Source: a virus. From it: a stretch of DNA of 11,306 nucleotides. Numbering within the stretch: position 1 is the stretch's first letter; the number at the start of each line of letters is the position of its first letter. Made by a program: the position numbers and the translations under genes. The stretch lies in the UHGV virus genome UHGV-1326493; one strand, written 5' to 3'. Of this stretch, positions 1,129-8,896 are shown in pieces. The notes under the pieces are model-generated. The model was not told the DNA's origin and did not search any database. It was given only the letters and a program-made list of their open reading frames with translations.

Positions 1129-1475
1129 CTTTATTTGATTAATAATGCATCACTGCGGCCACGCTGCAGCGATTCCTTGTATCTGGAGCAAATTAAATGA
1201 CAGATATTATAAATAGGAATTGTTATTTAATAATATTTGAAAATGAAAATCATGGACGATAGGAATAAAAGTAGTACTTGTTATTTTTAAGTGACGCATT
1301 AAACGCATAAAGCATATGTCTGTTGATCAAGATTCTTGCTTGTTGTAAAATAATTGTTTTGTTCATGTTGCATAGTTTTAAAGTGAATAGAAGATTATTT
1401 TTCAAAACAATTGCATCTTTGTCTGCAGTCATTCCGTTTTCTTCAATATCTAAATTTTCAAACAGGATGACTAAT

Positions 1476-4208
1476 ATGCCTGATATAACTCCAAATGTTG
1501 TAATTGGGATGCCTTCTCAACTCTTCACTATGGCTCGTTCTTTTAAAGCCGTAGCTAATGGCAAAATTTATATCGGTAAAATTGACACTGACCCTGTAAA
1601 TCCTGAAAACCAGATTCAGGTTTATGTAGAGAATGAAGATGGTTCTCACGTTCCTGTTTCGCAACCAATCGTTATCAATGCTGCTGGATATCCTGTATAT
1701 AACGGACAGATTGCTAAATTCGTTACTGTGAAAGGACACTCTATGGCTGTGTACGATGCTTATGGTACGCAGCAGTTCTATTTTCCGAATGTGCTGAAGT
1801 ATGACCCGGATCAGTTACGGCAGCAATTAGAAGATCCTGATGGTGCTAAAAAATACCCTGAATTACAGATTGCACGATGGCGGGATGATAAAGACGTTCG
1901 CGGGTGGGGGGCGGATGACTCTGGGAATAGAGATTCAACACAGGCTTTTCTTGACGCCGCATCTAGCGCAGGAAATAGTGGTTTGGTTCATGTGCCTTCT
2001 GGTGAGTTTATAGTTGATGCATCGAAAATAGATATTTCACGCTTCTCCGGTGATGGTGTTCTAATCAGTAATGGTGTTCGCATTTCTGTTAATCCGCCGA
2101 TGCAAAGTTTCTCCATTGGACAAAGAAAACTTGCGACCCTGAATTTTGGTGATGATATCAATGCGCCAACTATATATGCGAATGCACAAAATGCATTGCA
2201 GGGAATAGCTTGTGTAAGGCATGAAGGTATTGAGAAGGTTTTTATCACTCAACAGGTTGGAGGTTCTAACTGGGGAACGGACACCCTCACAAGGATCAGT
2301 GAGTGGCACTATACAAGCGATGGTTCGACCCTTTCTGTTGTGACATTTACAGAGCCATTGCCTCTTGGTCACGGTTCAGATCTTTCTGCCACAATAGAGA
2401 ACGGTGAACTATATCTGTTTACAACAACAATTGCTGAGACTGGTTCCTCTCTAGGAGGGAAGGGGTATTCAAAGACAAAATGGAAAGGGGCATCAACATC
2501 TGCTGAAGATATAACTCATTACCGAGTATTTGGTGAGCCGGGTGATAATAATCTGATTAACCTTGCGCAGCGGGCAAGTATTTGTGTATCTAATGATGGG
2601 CGATATGTCATATTAATTGCGACATCAAACGCTGGGACTGGCCGCTTTTTATACGTATATGATCGCAAAGAAGTGGAATCTTCTTCTAACCCAATGAAAG
2701 TTAGACCGATTAATGGTCCTGTTCCACTTGTCCGTGGTAAAGGTCAGTATGGTGCAACGCTTCAGGGTATTACATCAGATAGCAGATATATTTACACAAT
2801 TTGGGGTGGCGTTCCTGCAAGATGCGTAAGGACAGTCCAGATTTATGATATGGGTGGTACGCTAATACGTTCGTTTCCTGTATCACTTGCCGCATCACTT
2901 TATACAGAGACTCAGTTAAATGGTTCTGACTCTAAAATCGGAGTTCCGGTTAGCTTTGAGCCTGAAGGGCTGGCAATAAGAGGTGATGAACTTGTCTGTG
3001 GTGCTATGGATGTATGGAAAAGCGCAGGGGATGTTGTAAGCCATCGTGGTAAAAATTGGGTAAGTACTGTTACTGGTGATAACAAGGGAAATCTTCCGAC
3101 AAACAGGTCTTATTGGTTAAAAACATCGCTTGCAGCGACAAATGGTGAATGGGATTCAGGTGCAACATATAAATCAGGCGATTATACTCGCAGAAATAAG
3201 CATCTGTTTGGAGTAGCAAACCTGTCTGATATTCTTGGCAACCATCCAGTGCATGGCGCAGAATCCGATCCGTATACCGGAACCGCGTATCAATATTATG
3301 CTGGAACTGATATCGCCTTTAACCGTGAGCACGGTTCATTTACTATTGCGATATTTGACGAAGCCATTGGAGAGTATACCAAATCCCTCGAGTTGAATTA
3401 TGGAAATAACCTTAACCTGTTTGATACAGATTACGGCCATGACAATAATTCATGGGTAAGTACGAAAGCAGTATTCGACTCAAACTTTCGAGGTATGCAG
3501 TTCCGTTCTAAAGATGGCAATACTGCGGGTGGTGCTTATATTGATATCCATGCTGCTGATTGTCCATCTGCGGCTGGTGAGTTGATACTTGCCTCTACAG
3601 ATGGAGGTGTCGTCAGACTTAAGCAGGGGAATGTAACAGTATTTTCTGCGACTAAAGATACTACATCGACATGGGCGACGACGACATTAAGGCCAACAAC
3701 TGATAACCAGGTATCACTTGGAAGGTCCGTTAACCGCTTTTCTCAGGTCTACGCAGGGACTGCAACTATAAATACATCTGATGCAACAGAGAAAACGGAA
3801 GTCAGAACTCTTTCCGATAAAGAGCAGGCGGTTGGGTTAGCTCTTGTTGATGAAATTGGTTTTTATCAATGGCTTGATAGTGTAAAAAATAAGGGAGCTG
3901 ATGCCAGACTTCATGCCGGACTTACGGTGCAACGGGCAATGGAAATATTCAGAGAGAATGGACTTGATCCATTTAAATACGGAGCGATCTGCTATGACAG
4001 ATGGGATGCATATACAGATACAGATCCTGCTGTTTATGATGATGAAGGTAACCTTGTTCGTGAGGCTATAACTATTACGCATGAAGCAGGAGAACGCTAT
4101 GCATTCAGAAACGATGAATTACAGTATCTAATGATTGCTGCATTAGGTATACGTCAGAAAAATATTATAAAGAGGATTGAAGAACTGGAAAATAAGTTAA
4201 AAAATTAA
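1476..4208 (+). CDS. tailspike protein: P22-type head-binding N-terminal domain, distinct receptor-binding body, C-terminal intramolecular-chaperone-like domain
   Basis: N-terminus [59 protein letters not shown]...[10 protein letters not shown]...NVLKYDPDQ parallels P22 gp9 (MTDITANVVV...[38 protein letters not shown]...). Start chosen at ATG 1476, with AGGA 8 nt upstream and alignment to gp9 Met1; ATG 1467 is an alternative. The track start at 1323 is a coincidental in-frame extension through AT-rich leader. Stop TAA 4206-4208. Confidence 0.9.
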
Positions 4209-4750: not shown

Positions 4751-4992
4751 CTGTTACAGGTCACTAATACCATCTAAGTAGTTGATTCATAGTGACTGCA
4801 CATGCTGTGTTTTGCAGTATTATGTAGTCTATTATTTAGACCAAAACCATCATAACACATTGATATTGATGATTTTTCTTGTTTCTCATTCAGCTTTTTT
4901 ATACTAAGTTGGCCTTATAAAAAAGCATTGCTTATCAATTTGTTGCAACGAACAGGTCACTATCAGTCAAAATAAAATCATTATTTGATTTC
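4751..4992. other. attP: complete lambda-type attP (P arm, 15-bp core, P' arm)
   Basis: Core GCTTTTTTATACTAA at 4893-4907 flanked by CA...GTTGG as in lambda attP. Arm-type Int sites are present: P arm CTGTTACAGGTCACTAATAC and TTCATAGTGACTGCA (4751-4800), P' arm ACAGGTCACTATCAGTCAAAATAAAATCATTAT (4952-4984). The P' arm overlaps the 3' end of int, as in lambda. Confidence 0.85.
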
Positions 4993-6051
4993 AATTTTGT
5001 CCCACTCCCTGCCTCTGTCATCACGATACTGTGATGCCATGGTGTCCGACTTATGCCCGAGAAGATGTTGAGCAAATTTATCGCTTATCTGCTTCTCATA
5101 GAGTCTTGCAGACAAACTGCGCAACTCGTGAAAGGTTGGCGGATCCCCTTCGAAGGAAAGACCTGATGCTTTTCGTGCGCGCATAAAATACCTTGATACT
5201 GTGCCGGATGAAAGCGGTTCACGACGAGTAGATGCAATTATGGTTTCTCCGCCAAGAATCTCTTTGCATTTACCAAGTGTTTCCTTCATTGATATCCCGA
5301 GAGCATCAACATGCAATGTTGTAGGGATGGCAATTTTTACGCCTGTTTTGCTTTGCTCGACATAAAGATATCCATCTACGATATCAGACCACTTCATTTC
5401 GCATAAATCACCAACTCTCTGCCCGGTAACAACAGCCAGTTCCATTGCAAGTCTGAGCCAACATGGTGATGATTCTGCTGCTTGATAAATTTTCAGGTAT
5501 TCGTCAGCCGTAAGTCTTGATCTCCTTACCTCTGATTTTGCTGCGCGAGTGGCAGCGACCGGGTTTGTTGTTATATGGCCTTCAGCTATTGCCTCTCGGA
5601 ATGCATCGCTCAGTGTTGATCTGATTAACTTGGCTGACGCCGCCTTGCCCTCGTCTATGTATCCATTGAGCATTGCTGCAATTTCTTTTGTGGTGATGTC
5701 TTCAAGTGGAGCATCAGGCAGACCCCTCCTTATTGCTTTAATTTTGCTCATGTAATTTATGAGTGTCTTCTGCTTGATTCCTCTGTTGGCGAGGATTTTT
5801 TCGTAGCGATCAAGCCATGAATGTAACGTAACAGAATTATCACTGTTGATTCTCGCTGTCAGAGGCTTGTGTTTGTGTCCTGAAAATAACTCAATGTTGG
5901 CCTGTATAGCTTCAGTGATTGCTATCCTCCTGTCTCGGCCTAATCCAAACTCTTTACCCGTCCTTGGGTCCCTGTAGCAGTAATATCCATTGTTTCTTAT
6001 ATAAAGATTAGGGGGTAAATCCCGGTGCTCATGACTTCGCCTTCTTCCCAT
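4981..6051 (-). CDS. int: tyrosine integrase, lambda Int type, 356 aa
   Basis: MGRRRSHEHRDLPPNLYIRNNGYYCYRDPRTGKEFGLGRDRRIAITEAIQANIELF...HELRSLSARLYEKQISDKFAQHLLGHKSDTMASQYRDDRGREWDKIEIK is near-identical to lambda Int as I recall it. R-x-x-R, H-x-x-R, H and the Y in ...MASQYRDD are intact. Overlaps xis by 23 nt. Confidence 0.97.
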   Translation of the reverse strand: MGRRRSHEHRDLPPNLYIRNNGYYCYRDPRTGKEFGLGRDRRIAITEAIQANIELFSGHKHKPLTARINSDNSVTLHSWLDRYEKILANRGIKQKTLINYMSKIKAIRRGLPDAPLEDITTKEIAAMLNGYIDEGKAASAKLIRSTLSDAFREAIAEGHITTNPVAATRAAKSEVRRSRLTADEYLKIYQAAESSPCWLRLAMELAVVTGQRVGDLCEMKWSDIVDGYLYVEQSKTGVKIAIPTTLHVDALGISMKETLGKCKEILGGETIIASTRREPLSSGTVSRYFMRARKASGLSFEGDPPTFHELRSLSARLYEKQISDKFAQHLLGHKSDTMASQYRDDRGREWDKIEIK

Positions 6052-6247
6052 TTTTGATCCTCTTCAAAAGGCTACCTGTTACTGGTCGATTTAAGTCAAC
6101 CTTTACCGCTGATTCGTGGAACAGATACTCTCTTCCATCCTTAACCGGAGGAGGGAATATCCTGCACTCGCGTACCCATCGACGAACTGTTTCAAGGCTT
6201 CTTGGGCGTCGCTGGCGTGCGTTCCACTCCTGAAGTGTCAAGTACAT
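6029..6247 (-). CDS. xis: excisionase, lambda Xis type, 72 aa
   Basis: MYLTLQEWNARQRRPRSLETVRRWVRECRIFPPPVKDGREYLFHESAVKVDLNRP...KKAKS matches lambda Xis. Has the characteristic overlap with the int start. Confidence 0.95.
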   Translation of the reverse strand: MYLTLQEWNARQRRPRSLETVRRWVRECRIFPPPVKDGREYLFHESAVKVDLNRPVTGSLLKRIKNGKKAKS

Positions 6248-7094: not shown

Positions 7095-7474
7095 GATTTA
7101 TCTCCCTTAAGCATGGCGGCGCGGCAGGAGTTCCAGCCTCTCACCTCTGCAATAGCGGCAACAGCATCGACCGCGTACATTTTAAGAGGGTTAGGCATTG
7201 GTTTTTCTTCAGGTACTACTGGCACTGGAGGGGCGGCATAAACAGGAATAACGTCCGATTGATCTTTATTGCTTTCATCCGTTAAAGCCCAGAATAATTT
7301 CCCGGCCGGATGTTTGAAAATATAAGCAACTGGTTCTGCTTCCAGCGATGCCTGTGCGATACGAAACACATTGGCAAGCAGGCTGTCTGTAGATTGGTTA
7401 TCGTGCGCCGGGTCGCTCAGGAAACCAGTGATGAATGATTTAATTTCCGCGTTTTCTCTGGTAATAGTGGTCAT
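7091..7474 (-). CDS. hypothetical protein, 127 aa
   Basis: ATG at 7474 with AAGGA upstream; ATGA overlap with the upstream gene. No recognisable domain. Confidence 0.6.
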   Translation of the reverse strand: MTTITRENAEIKSFITGFLSDPAHDNQSTDSLLANVFRIAQASLEAEPVAYIFKHPAGKLFWALTDESNKDQSDVIPVYAAPPVPVVPEEKPMPNPLKMYAVDAVAAIAEVRGWNSCRAAMLKGDKS

Positions 7475-7680
7475 TTGTTAATCCTTAAAACTTTATGCCC
7501 TGGCGCAAAAGCACGTGTTTTGTCTTTGCTTATTCGCCAGCCATCCTTACGTGCCTCTTTTGCACAGCCAGCCCATGACGTACCGATATACTCACCGAAG
7601 TCTGGCGTTTGATATTTACCATTTGTACACTGGCGACAATCACAGTAGAGATGCATGGTGTAACTTGCGGCAATAGCCAT
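7471..7680 (-). CDS. small Cys-rich protein, putative zinc-ribbon (69 aa)
   Basis: Start chosen at the internal ATG (plus 7678-7680) because AAGGAGA lies 7 nt upstream; the track's longer form 7471..7788 has no such signal. Product MAIAASYTMHLYCDCRQCTNGKYQTPDFGEYIGTSWAGCAKEARKDGWR... has a C-x-C-x2-C ... C arrangement. Confidence 0.55.
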   Translation of the reverse strand: MAIAASYTMHLYCDCRQCTNGKYQTPDFGEYIGTSWAGCAKEARKDGWRISKDKTRAFAPGHKVLRINK

Positions 7681-7681
7681 A

Positions 7682-7873
7682 TCAGTCTCCTTTAGTGCGC
7701 AAGTGGTTTTTCCAGCGGTTTTGCGCCGCGCTGCCCTTATCTCGGACTCCCTCTCTGGCAATTCCAGAAAATGAAAACAACACCACACGACGATTGCTAA
7801 CTCTCAACCACTGGCTGGGATAGCAAAGTCTGTATACACGGGAGATAAGCATCTTAGCTTTACGGTTTTTCAT
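7682..7873 (-). CDS. small basic protein, 63 aa; paralogue of the adjacent 58-aa gene
   Basis: Starts MKNRKAK; ATGA overlap with the upstream paralogue. Its 5' end carries the 18-nt repeat GATGAAAAACCGTAAAGC (plus 7857-7874). Confidence 0.5.
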   Translation of the reverse strand: MKNRKAKMLISRVYRLCYPSQWLRVSNRRVVLFSFSGIAREGVRDKGSAAQNRWKNHLRTKGD

Positions 7874-8046
7874 CTTACTGCGTACCCTTTCTTCCGCCTG
7901 TTCTGTGACGCGCTAGGCTTACGCTTTGCGGCAAAAGCCACCTGACCAAATGGATGGAGTACCGCTATCTTATGGTTGCTGATAACCAGCTCCACCACAC
8001 GCACAGGTCGCTGTAAAAAAAGTCGTTTTGCTTTACGGTTTTTCAT
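7870..8046 (-). CDS. small basic protein, 58 aa; paralogue of the adjacent 63-aa gene
   Basis: Internal ATG (plus 8044-8046) preceded by AGGAGAG at 7-nt spacing; starts MKNRKAKRLFLQRPVRVV... The same 18-nt repeat lies at plus 8030-8047. The track's longer form 7870..8088 is unsupported. Confidence 0.5.
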   Translation of the reverse strand: MKNRKAKRLFLQRPVRVVELVISNHKIAVLHPFGQVAFAAKRKPSASQNRRKKGYAVR

Positions 8047-8896
8047 CGTTTTGCTCTCCTGCGTCTCCTTTGATGCGAATGCCAGCAAGCCAGTTTCTTA
8101 TGCCGATATATTCAGCGTTCCTGAAACCGCTTTTTACATATATAAATGGCAAGCGAAGATTGTGACCATTGGCTGCCAGGTAGTCTTTACAACCCTGTTC
8201 GGTGAAACAGCAGGTAACGAATTCATCAATATCTTTCACAGCAACGCGCCGCCATTTTTCTGGTGGCTCTCGAAAGTTTTCATGAAGTAGTTCGAGACGA
8301 CGACTTTGGCGTTTATTGGCTTCATTGCCATCTTCATCAACCCAGACAATCCGGTCATAGTCATAATCAGCATCAACAACAATTTCGCGCTTTTGATACA
8401 CACAAAACATAGGGTCTGACGTTATTCGATTATCCTGTGTTCGAATATTTTCACCGATGATGCCAAACGAATCTGGTGCAGATTTTGTCTGCAACTCTGC
8501 TATGCGCTTACTTCCATCCGAGATAACACCTTCGTAATACTCGCGCTGCTCGTTGAGTTTTGATTTTGTCTCCTCAAGCTCAACACGCAGCTTCCCTACC
8601 GTTAGCGCAATATCCTCGTTCTCCTGGTCACGGCGTTTTATGTATTGCTGGTTTCTTTCCCGTTCATCCAGCAGCGCCTGCACTACTTCAGGGTTGAAAG
8701 CTGCGATATAACGCGCGTTATTCTCTGCGTTTTCCTGTCCATCAAAGCCGGTCCATTTGATAACGTCTTCACATCGTTTATCACCTGGTGTATGCACCGC
8801 ATATGTACCAGTACCCGACGAAATAAATGCGACCCATTCGCCTTGTGTTGCCTGTTTTGCTATCTCACGCAGTGCCTGGTAATTAATTTCGCTCAC
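8033..8896 (-). CDS. Ea22-like early protein, 287 aa
   Basis: GTG start with GGAGG 6 nt upstream. MSEINYQALRE... and ...LDERERNQQYIKRRDQENEDIALTVGKLRVELEETKSKLNEQREYYEGVISDGSKRIAEL... and the ending GIRIKGD... match what I recall of lambda Ea22; the middle and C-terminal half differ. Confidence 0.7.
   Translation of the reverse strand: MSEINYQALREIAKQATQGEWVAFISSGTGTYAVHTPGDKRCEDVIKWTGFDGQENAENNARYIAAFNPEVVQALLDERERNQQYIKRRDQENEDIALTVGKLRVELEETKSKLNEQREYYEGVISDGSKRIAELQTKSAPDSFGIIGENIRTQDNRITSDPMFCVYQKREIVVDADYDYDRIVWVDEDGNEANKRQSRRLELLHENFREPPEKWRRVAVKDIDEFVTCCFTEQGCKDYLAANGHNLRLPFIYVKSGFRNAEYIGIRNWLAGIRIKGDAGEQNDEKP

What the first reader, a model, noticed from the sequence alone, without database searches (positions are those of the whole stretch)
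7682..8047. Tandem paralogous small basic genes marked by an identical 18-nt repeat at their 5' ends
GATGAAAAACCGTAAAGC occurs twice on the minus strand (plus 7857-7874 and 8030-8047), 173 bp apart, each time forming the start of an ORF beginning MKNRKAK. The two products (63 and 58 aa) have diverged but share a basic C-terminal segment (KGSAAQNRWKNH versus KPSASQNRRKKG). The pattern suggests a duplicated small nucleic-acid-binding protein, or alternatively a repeated regulatory site that happens to be coding.
Basis: seen in the sequence. Interest (0 to 1): 0.45.

Follow-up and report, generated by a model that had tools for sequence, protein, structure and literature searches.

The report
Tandem small basic phage paralog genes
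The 18-base repeat is the shared start of two neighbouring, anciently diverged copies of a catalogued but uncharacterised family of tiny, very basic phage proteins, so it is an ordinary feature of a mosaic prophage region, not a regulatory site.

Summary
GATGAAAAACCGTAAAGC occurs exactly twice (7857-7874 and 8030-8047, minus strand). Each copy opens an ORF: gene A (8046..7870, 58 aa) and gene B (7873..7682, 63 aa).

Both match one phage protein family of unknown function, phrog_1380, over their full length. They are 42% identical as proteins and about 45% as DNA, so they are old paralogs, not a recent duplication.

They lie in the leftward early operon of a P22-like/lambdoid prophage, between an Ea22-like gene and a 69-aa gene. 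The A stop and B start overlap (ATGA).

In 85 related loci (84 fetched plus the window) the family forms arrays of one to three copies, never the same central type twice. Within-type pN/pS is 0.08-0.45, and the conserved motifs vary at synonymous sites in the more distant members, so the genes are coding.

All 111 matches to the 18-mer in 437 kb of related DNA sit at family gene starts. That rules out an operator. One relative differs from another by exactly the 173 bp between the two repeat copies, so the repeat marks a point of cassette gain or loss.

Function is unknown. There is no Pfam, NCBIfam, PADLOC, PDB or fold match. Nucleic-acid binding rests only on pI about 12. Interest is low.

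The parts
8030..8047 (-). Repeat copy 1: base -1, the ATG and codons 2-6 of gene A. It also overlaps the last codons and the TAA stop (8035-8033) of the Ea22-like gene.
7857..7874 (-). Repeat copy 2: base -1, the ATG and codons 2-6 of gene B. It contains the ATGA overlap with the gene A stop (7873-7870).
7870..8046 (-). Gene A, 58 aa plus stop: MKNRKAKRLFLQRPVRVVELVISNHKIAVLHPFGQVAFAAKRKPSASQNRRKKGYAVR. It is a phrog_1380 member with the 'internal' tail ...QNRRKKGYAVR.
7682..7873 (-). Gene B, 63 aa plus stop: MKNRKAKMLISRVYRLCYPSQWLRVSNRRVVLFSFSGIAREGVRDKGSAAQNRWKNHLRTKGD. It is a phrog_1380 member with the 'terminal' tail ...QNRWKNHLRTKGD.
8047..8062 (-). Conserved junction J (GCAGGAGAGCAAAACG), which carries the Shine-Dalgarno AGGAG (8060-8056) for gene A. 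In other phages the same junction follows gene X (phrog_13831).
7686..7693 (-). AAAGGAGA, the ribosome-binding site for the downstream gene C. It lies inside the last codons (KGD) of gene B and is part of the recurrent junction AAAGGAGA[G/C]TGATATG.
8033..8896 (-). Upstream neighbour: an Ead/Ea22-like protein of 287 aa (PF13935, E 7e-44). Its last 11 aa are read from junction J.
7471..7680 (-). Downstream neighbour, gene C: 69 aa, MAIAASYTMHLYCDC..., phrog_926, unknown function. Its ATG lies 1 nt after the gene B stop.

Best explanation
Genes A and B are two translationally coupled, anciently diverged paralogs of one small family of phage proteins (phrog_1380). Members are 55-68 aa with pI about 12 and a predicted helix, three strands, helix layout. 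Conserved motifs are an N-terminal M-K-N-R-K-A-K, a central [IV]-S-N-[RH]-[RK] and a C-terminal S-A-A-Q-N-R-W-K-N-H. The genes sit in the variable accessory part of the leftward early (exo-xis / ea) operon of a P22-like lambdoid prophage. The 18-nt repeat is the family's conserved 5' coding end together with its start context. Because family genes share conserved ends around near-saturated, variable centres, those ends act as short homologies. Through them, whole 'cassettes' are gained, lost or swapped, giving arrays of one to three different members. Shown: paralogy, coding status, array variation, and an indel bounded by the repeat. Inferred: transcription from pL with translation of B coupled to A. 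Inferred with low confidence (about 0.3): the products bind nucleic acid, and different central types confer different specificities.
For: Family membership and paralogy. Narrow family: only 47 clusters at E<=1e-3 among 1.84 billion representatives.

Coding status: within-type pN/pS is 0.08-0.45. The MKNRKAK and SAAQNRWKNH codons vary at synonymous sites in divergent members. The frame is kept open across central regions that are only 20-31% identical in DNA.

Operon context: A and B overlap by ATGA, Ea22 and A overlap by 14 nt, and the gene C ATG is 1 nt after the gene B stop. No promoter-like site was found in 7300-8500; the one terminator-like match (7346-7329) lies downstream of gene C, inside the next gene, and is no more than shuffles give.

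Arrays: 54 single, 29 double and 1 true triple among the related loci (whose table also counts two double loci as three because of near-zero-score partial hits); no array holds the same central type twice. The same central type is found with either the internal tail (QNRRKKGYAVR plus ATGA) or the terminal tail (QNRWKNHLRTKGE).

Repeat-bounded indel: L008 equals L009 minus exactly the 173 bp between the two repeat copies. L011 and L076 carry other centres between the same flanks.

Spread: both genes together are in 133 of 5426 complete E. coli genomes and in lambdoid, P1-like (RCS47, D6) and epsilon15-like (phiV10) phages. RefSeq annotates both as hypothetical proteins. The phiV10 record already notes that p51 resembles p50.

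Properties: pI 12.0 and 11.7, with 16 K+R against 1-3 D+E. Both AF2 models give alpha-beta3-alpha.
Against: There is no direct evidence of expression, and no paper on the family was found. There are no Pfam, NCBIfam, PADLOC or PDB sequence hits and no fold match, so the biochemical function is a guess from composition. The AF2 models have only modest confidence (pLDDT 65 and 70). Gene B has only a weak Shine-Dalgarno sequence, so coupling is inferred, not shown. The L008/L009 difference shows an indel bounded by the repeat, but not its direction or the recombination pathway. Near-fixation of the 18-mer in E. coli-type members could also reflect selection on the translation-initiation region.
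Confidence: 0.8

Rival explanations
1. The 18-mer is a repeated regulatory site (an operator or other protein- or RNA-binding site) that happens to lie in coding sequence.
For: It is an exact 18-nt repeat that chance does not explain. It is nearly fixed at the nucleotide level in five cassette types whose interiors have diverged to saturation.
Against: All 111 matches with 2 mismatches or fewer in 437 kb of related loci lie at family gene starts, and none is intergenic. In the other lineage (types 6 and 7) the same codons vary at synonymous sites (AAC/AAT, CGT/CGC/CGA), which indicates protein-level constraint. No promoter-like site lies nearby, there is no Rfam match, and the start regions fold no better than shuffles (z +0.85 and +1.06). 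The motif has no dyad symmetry, as the sequence itself shows.
Confidence: 0.03
2. The pair is a recent local tandem duplication that is now diverging.
For: The two genes are adjacent, in the same orientation and of the same family, with identical 5' ends.
Against: Overall DNA identity is 45%, and it is 20-31% outside the motifs. The A-plus-B pair is conserved as a unit at 82-97% identity in unrelated phage types. The same first-position gene pairs with different partners, and the same centres occur in different positions and with different tails. This fits assembly from pre-existing diverged members.
Confidence: 0.05
3. The family is an arms-race effector, such as an anti-defence or superinfection-exclusion protein. 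On this view the variable centres and variable copy number reflect diversifying selection, and the conserved ends serve as exchange points for cassettes.
For: The centres are near-saturated and variable between conserved ends. Arrays hold 1-3 copies that are always of different types. The genes lie in the early accessory region that in related phages also carries counter-defence genes such as abc2 anti-RecBCD. The family spreads across lambdoid, P1-like and epsilon15-like phages. Within-type pN/pS is highest (0.45) for the commonest type.
Against: There is no similarity to any known defence or anti-defence protein, and no positive selection was demonstrated, since all within-type pN/pS values are below 1. 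Ordinary lambdoid mosaicism explains the pattern without any arms race.
Confidence: 0.15
4. The proteins are three-stranded beta-sheet DNA-binding domains of the integrase arm-binding / Tn916-Int type, or dsRBD/HicA-like alpha-beta3-alpha domains.
For: The predicted topology is helix, three strands, helix. The top Foldseek PDB hits include the arm-type domains of the HPI and P4-like integrases (3jtz at E 0.63, and 3rmp). The proteins carry extreme positive charge.
Confidence: 0.1

Closest known systems
phrog_1380 (PHROGs v4, unknown function). This includes the RefSeq hypothetical proteins annotated in relatives (58-aa A type at L007 1530-1706; 63-aa B type at L007 1703-1894 and L001 2017-2208) and phiV10 p50/p51.
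   Same: Both ORFs match the profile over its full length. They have the same size, motifs, tandem layout and neighbourhood. Identical B and A sequences already exist in public data.
   Different: Nothing substantive. The window lacks the gene X that often precedes the array, so junction J is fused directly to the Ea22-like gene.
Small early proteins of the lambda / Stx-phage exo-xis region (Orf60a, Orf63, Orf61, Orf73, Ea8.5), which modulate the lysis-lysogeny decision (PMC8614690, PMC3824215).
   Same: [quoted passage not shown] They are of similar size, are presumed to be expressed early from pL, and are dispensable accessory genes.
   Different: No sequence relation was found: hhalign against the 933W Orf60a homolog gives probability 0.1%. 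Phi24B, the phage used for most functional work, lacks the family. No phenotype is known.
Mosaic module boundaries of lambdoid phages, where genes are exchanged at short conserved sequences at gene junctions (my own knowledge of the Hendrix/Casjens/Clark literature; not re-read here).
   Same: Conserved junctions (J, the internal ...GGGTACGCAGTAAGATGA... and AAAGGAGA[G/C]TGATATG) flank interchangeable genes. An indel is bounded exactly by the repeat.
   Different: Here the exchange unit is unusually small, about 100-170 bp and within one gene family. The conserved 'linkers' are partly the coding termini of the proteins themselves.
Arginine-rich-motif RNA-binding peptides such as lambda N (my own knowledge).
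   Same: They are short, very basic early phage products with a conserved Trp inside a basic helix (QNRWKNH).
   Different: No homology was detected, binding was not tested, and the family has a predicted beta-sheet core that ARM peptides lack.

Membership tests
phrog_1380 small basic phage proteins | Significant match to the family profile over its full length | tested here: met
   Gene A matches at E 3e-23 (residues 1-58 on profile 1-60 of 62). Gene B matches at E 3.8e-34 (residues 1-63 on profile 1-62 of 62).
phrog_1380 small basic phage proteins | Conserved motifs: N-terminal NRKAK, central SN[RH][RK], C-terminal S-A-[AS]-Q-N-R | tested here: met
   Alignments A1 and A3 show invariant M1, K2, N3, R4, K5, A6, K7, S26, N27, Q51, N52 and R53, and both window genes carry them.
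phrog_1380 small basic phage proteins | Protein-coding under purifying selection | tested here: met
   pN/pS is 0.08 for the A type and 0.45 for the B type, and 0.14 in the most divergent type, where pS is 0.46.
phrog_1380 small basic phage proteins | Located in a same-strand run of small early genes of temperate enterobacterial phages, often next to an Ead/Ea22-like gene | tested here: met
   53 of 85 loci have an Ea22 N-domain gene within 1.3 kb on the same strand, and the window does too.
Operator / repeated regulatory DNA site | Copies occur at non-coding, promoter-proximal positions, independent of any one gene family | tested here: not met
   All 111 matches lie at family gene starts, and no promoter-like site was found.
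Operator / repeated regulatory DNA site | Nucleotide-level rather than codon-level conservation | tested here: not met
   Divergent members change only third codon positions within the motif.
Structured regulatory RNA | Stable or known RNA structure | tested here: not met
   No Rfam family matches. Folding z-scores are +0.85 and +1.06.
Integrase arm-type / Tn916-like three-stranded-sheet DNA-binding domain | Significant fold or profile similarity to an arm-binding domain | tested here: not met
dsRBD / HicA-like alpha-beta3-alpha domains | Fold match and the family's sequence motifs | tested here: not met
   Only the secondary-structure order agrees. The HicA-like chain 1whz appears at E 2.8 and probability 0.04. 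There is no Pfam hit.
Type II toxin-antitoxin pair | Two unrelated partner proteins, typically an acidic or DNA-binding antitoxin with a toxin | tested here: not met
   The two proteins are homologs of each other and both are strongly basic. Single-copy loci are common.
Nucleic-acid-binding protein (generic) | Demonstrated binding to DNA or RNA | not testable with these tools
   Only composition is available: pI 11.7-12.0 and net charge +13 to +15.

The most novel reading that the evidence does not exclude
The phrog_1380 locus is a miniature cassette array. Conserved coding termini and junctions act as recombination handles that shuffle variable ~100-nt centres between phages of unrelated types. 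This would build arrays of one to three non-identical small basic proteins whose variable beta-sheet surfaces track variable host or rival-phage targets, for example as counter-defence or exclusion factors.
Probability: 0.15. Interest if true: 0.6.

Novelty: new member of a known kind. Interest (0 to 1): 0.22.

Why it matters
The practical value is mainly in annotation. The two ORFs are real genes of one uncharacterised family that gene callers handle badly. Database entries for B-type genes often carry false N-terminal extensions to 81-103 aa. The copy in the reference Stx phage 933W is unannotated. Several database entries are chimeras. The family is common: its DNA matches in about 1070 of 5426 complete E. 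coli genomes, and it occurs in Stx phages and P1-like phage-plasmids. It sits in the exo-xis region, whose small proteins are known to influence lysogeny and induction, so a function would be of some interest to phage biologists. The small-scale cassette exchange at conserved gene ends is a tidy example of how lambdoid mosaicism works, but it is not a new principle.

Tried and rejected
1. Function by sequence. Pfam, NCBIfam and PADLOC scans of A, B, X and C gave nothing meaningful. A profile search against PDB sequences at E<=10 gave 0 hits.

3. A remembered resemblance to dsRBD/HicA and to integrase arm-binding domains was not supported.

4. Homology of the family to the upstream gene X, to downstream gene C or to Orf60a was not found.

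5. The operator and RNA-element readings were rejected.

6. Taxonomic breadth from genome contigs failed: alignment A3 was too divergent for pattern building, and A2 gave 59 pattern matches, none confirmed.

7. Literature searches for the N-terminal peptide and for the region found no paper on this family.

8. The contexts of distant members (P0102, P0104) were only further runs of unannotated small phage genes.

9. Phi24B, the experimentally studied Stx phage, lacks the family.

Full report
**1. The observation**

The 18-mer GATGAAAAACCGTAAAGC is present exactly twice, on the minus strand at 7857-7874 and 8030-8047. No further match appears even with three mismatches, and none of 200 shuffles gave two matches.

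Reading the minus strand, each copy supplies base -1, an ATG and codons 2-6 of an ORF:
- Gene A runs 8046..7870 and encodes 58 aa (MKNRKAKRLF...GYAVR).
- Gene B runs 7873..7682 and encodes 63 aa (MKNRKAKMLI...RTKGD).

The mechanical ORF list extends A to a TTG at 8088. The ATG at 8046 is the family-wide start, has AGGAG nine bases upstream, and gives the 58-aa product that RefSeq annotates in relatives.

**2. Context**

The window is a mosaic P22-like/lambdoid prophage end. It holds a tailspike gene on the plus strand. On the minus strand it holds a lambda-type integrase and excisionase and a run of closely packed small genes.

The order along the leftward early transcript is: an Ead/Ea22-like gene (8896..8033, PF13935 at E 7e-44), gene A, gene B, a 69-aa gene C (7680..7471, phrog_926), further unknown genes, an ASCH-domain gene, xis and int.

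The genes are packed tightly:
- The Ea22-like gene ends 14 nt inside gene A.
- The gene A stop and the gene B start overlap as ATGA.
- The gene C ATG is one base after the gene B stop.

No promoter-like site lies in 7300-8500. The single terminator-like match (7346-7329) is downstream of gene C, inside the next gene, and is no more than shuffles give. No Rfam family matches the window. This is the 'variable set of downstream genes' that follows ea22 in the exo-xis region, as described in PMC8614690.

**3. What the two ORFs are**

Both match one PHROG family of unknown function, phrog_1380, from end to end (E 3e-23 and 3.8e-34). They align with each other at 42% identity (E 8e-7). Pfam, NCBIfam and PADLOC contain nothing for them.

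A word-indexed search found 65 relatives. The organism names that sources attach to these and to the phage and plasmid hits are all Enterobacterales: Escherichia, Salmonella, Citrobacter, Shigella, Klebsiella, and one Yersinia phage. An exhaustive profile search of 1.84 billion cluster representatives found only 47 clusters at E<=1e-3. The family is real but narrow.

Alignments show three features:
- an invariant N-terminus M-K-N-R-K-A-K;
- a central [IV]-S-N-[RH]-[RK];
- a C-terminal S-A-A-Q-N-R-W-K-N-H block, with highly variable sequence in between.

**4. Are they coding?**

I fetched 80 related loci from IMG/VR plus annotated records. I located every family member with an HMM on six-frame translations.

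- Within each central sequence type, pN/pS is 0.08-0.45. The A type shows 10 synonymous against 2 non-synonymous differences. The most divergent type has pS 0.46 and pN/pS 0.14.
- In divergent members the MKNRKAK codons change only at third positions (AAC/AAT, CGT/CGC/CGA, AAA/AAG, GCA/GCT/GCC). The SAAQNRWKNH codons behave the same way.
- The reading frame is kept between the two conserved blocks even though the centres of A and B are only 20-31% identical in DNA.

These results establish protein-level selection. There is no direct expression evidence.

**5. Is the repeat a regulatory site?**

No. In 437 kb of related loci the 18-mer, allowing two mismatches, occurs 111 times, and every occurrence is the start of a family gene. 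One of these is the unannotated copy in phage 933W and another is a frameshifted copy in L081. The motif has no dyad symmetry. The start regions fold slightly worse than shuffled controls (z +0.85 and +1.06), as expected for open translation-initiation regions.

**6. Array structure and the role of the conserved ends**

The family occurs as one copy (54 loci), two (29 loci plus two further double loci that carried a negligible extra partial hit) or three (L025). No array holds the same central type twice. The observed orders are (1,0), (4,0), (3,0), (5,0), (2,0), (1,3) and (1,3,0), where type 1 is the A type and type 0 the B type.

The C-terminal tail depends on position, not on the centre:
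- A copy followed by another family gene ends ...QNRRKKGYAVR with an ATGA overlap.
- The last copy ends ...QNRWKNHLRTKG[ED], whose codons contain the AAAGGAGA ribosome-binding site of the next gene.
- The same centres are found with either tail.

Upstream, the junction GCAGGAGAGCAAAACG follows either a 58-aa gene X (phrog_13831) or, as in the window, the Ea22-like gene directly. Downstream, the junction AAAGGAGA[G/C]TGATATG leads into at least six different genes.

The clearest evidence is an alignment of five loci. L009 is identical to the window across A and B. L008 has the same flanks and the same B but lacks exactly the 173 bp between the two repeat copies. L011 carries a different first gene, and L076 a different single gene, between the same flanks.

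The repeat is thus the conserved 5' end of the family and is, in practice, a point at which a whole gene is gained or lost. Among the E. coli-type centres the 18-mer is nearly fixed at the nucleotide level although the interiors are saturated. In the other lineage the same codons drift synonymously. This fits homogenisation by recombination better than a strict RNA- or DNA-level requirement, but selection on the initiation region cannot be excluded.

**7. Distribution**

- DNA covering both genes is found in 133 of 5426 complete E. coli genomes, and some part of it in 1071.
- The pair occurs in lambdoid phages (TL-2011b and TL-2011c at 97.5% identity), P1-like phage-plasmids (RCS47, D6 and about 100 plasmids) and the epsilon15-like phiV10.
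- RefSeq annotates both as hypothetical proteins.
- The phiV10 record already notes that p51 resembles p50.
- 933W carries a single unannotated copy.
- Phi24B has none.
- An Ea22-type gene lies within 1.3 kb on the same strand in 53 of 85 loci, and gene X lies directly upstream in 36.

**8. Function**

Function is unknown. The proteins are extremely basic: pI 12.0 and 11.7, with 16 Lys+Arg against 1-3 acidic residues.

AlphaFold2 with family alignments gives helix, three strands, helix for both, at modest confidence (pLDDT 65 and 70). Fold searches found nothing:
- Foldseek against PDB gave a best E of 0.63, for an integrase arm-binding domain.
- Foldseek against BFVD gave only an uncharacterised family-like protein of phage Av-05.

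Profile comparisons with the window's integrase arm domain, gene X, gene C and an Orf60a homolog were all negative. No paper on the family was found.

My best guess is nucleic-acid binding by small early accessory proteins, perhaps as hetero-oligomers, because arrays always combine different types. This rests on composition and context only. I give it about 0.3.

**9. Verdict**

The paralog interpretation is right but needs one correction: these are ancient paralogs assembled by recombination, not a fresh duplication. The regulatory-site alternative is rejected.

The feature is an ordinary part of lambdoid accessory-gene mosaicism and belongs to a catalogued, uncharacterised family. The small-scale cassette exchange and the rule that arrays always combine different types are mildly interesting. 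They leave room, at a probability of about 0.15, for an arms-race function.

Noticed in passing
window 8033-8065 (-): The Ea22-like protein ends ...IRIKGDAGEQNDEKP*. Its last 11 residues come from reading junction J and the first codons of gene A in another frame. In E. coli 7/2 (L002) the same gene ends IRIKGE* and is followed directly by gene C.
   Followed up: partly
window 7681-7693 (-); L002 1833-1848; many loci: The junction AAAGGAGA[G/C]TGATATG links either a phrog_1380 gene or the Ea22-like gene to at least six different downstream genes. It acts as a general module boundary in this region.
   Followed up: partly
L088 (phage 933W, AF125520) 2501-2689: The reference Stx2 phage 933W carries an unannotated phrog_1380 gene. 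The annotated L0068 is gene C called with a long false N-terminal extension that overlaps it. A shortened gene X (51 aa) precedes it and is also unannotated.
   Followed up: partly
proteins P0098, P0002, P0099; L046 from 2501 (108-aa read-through ORF); L081 2326-2501: Several database entries are chimeras or decayed copies. P0098 fuses the first 37 aa of gene A in frame to gene C at the microhomology GGCT[T/A]TTGCCGCAA. P0002 fuses an Ea22 N-terminal fragment to a B-type gene. L046 has lost the stop codon (108 aa). The first copy in L081 is frameshifted.
   Followed up: no
L001 1844-2020; L007 1357-1533; L006 1352-1528: A third small, very basic gene, X (58 aa, phrog_13831, pI 12, tail ...AAARRAAKKRRRAKR), lies directly upstream of the array in 36 of 85 loci and supplies junction J. 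It is absent from the window. No homology to the A/B family was detected.
   Followed up: partly
proteins P0001-P0039: Gene callers frequently extend B-type genes upstream to 81-103 aa by reading through the junction in frame. Many database entries for this family therefore have wrong starts.
   Followed up: no
L049-L066 and L072 (type 7 loci): In a second lineage of the family (tail ...NHVRFQ) the gene lies directly upstream of an Ea22-like gene with an ATGA overlap, not downstream of it. The association with Ea22-type genes therefore holds in both orders.
   Followed up: partly
window 1323-4208 (+) and 4981-6247 (-): A P22-type tailspike ORF (961 aa) lies next to a lambda-type int/xis pair; the Xis and the Int N-terminus look nearly identical to lambda's, judged from memory and not checked by alignment. 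No public phage or E. coli record covers more than about 38% of the window in one place, so this prophage is a strongly mosaic combination.
   Followed up: no
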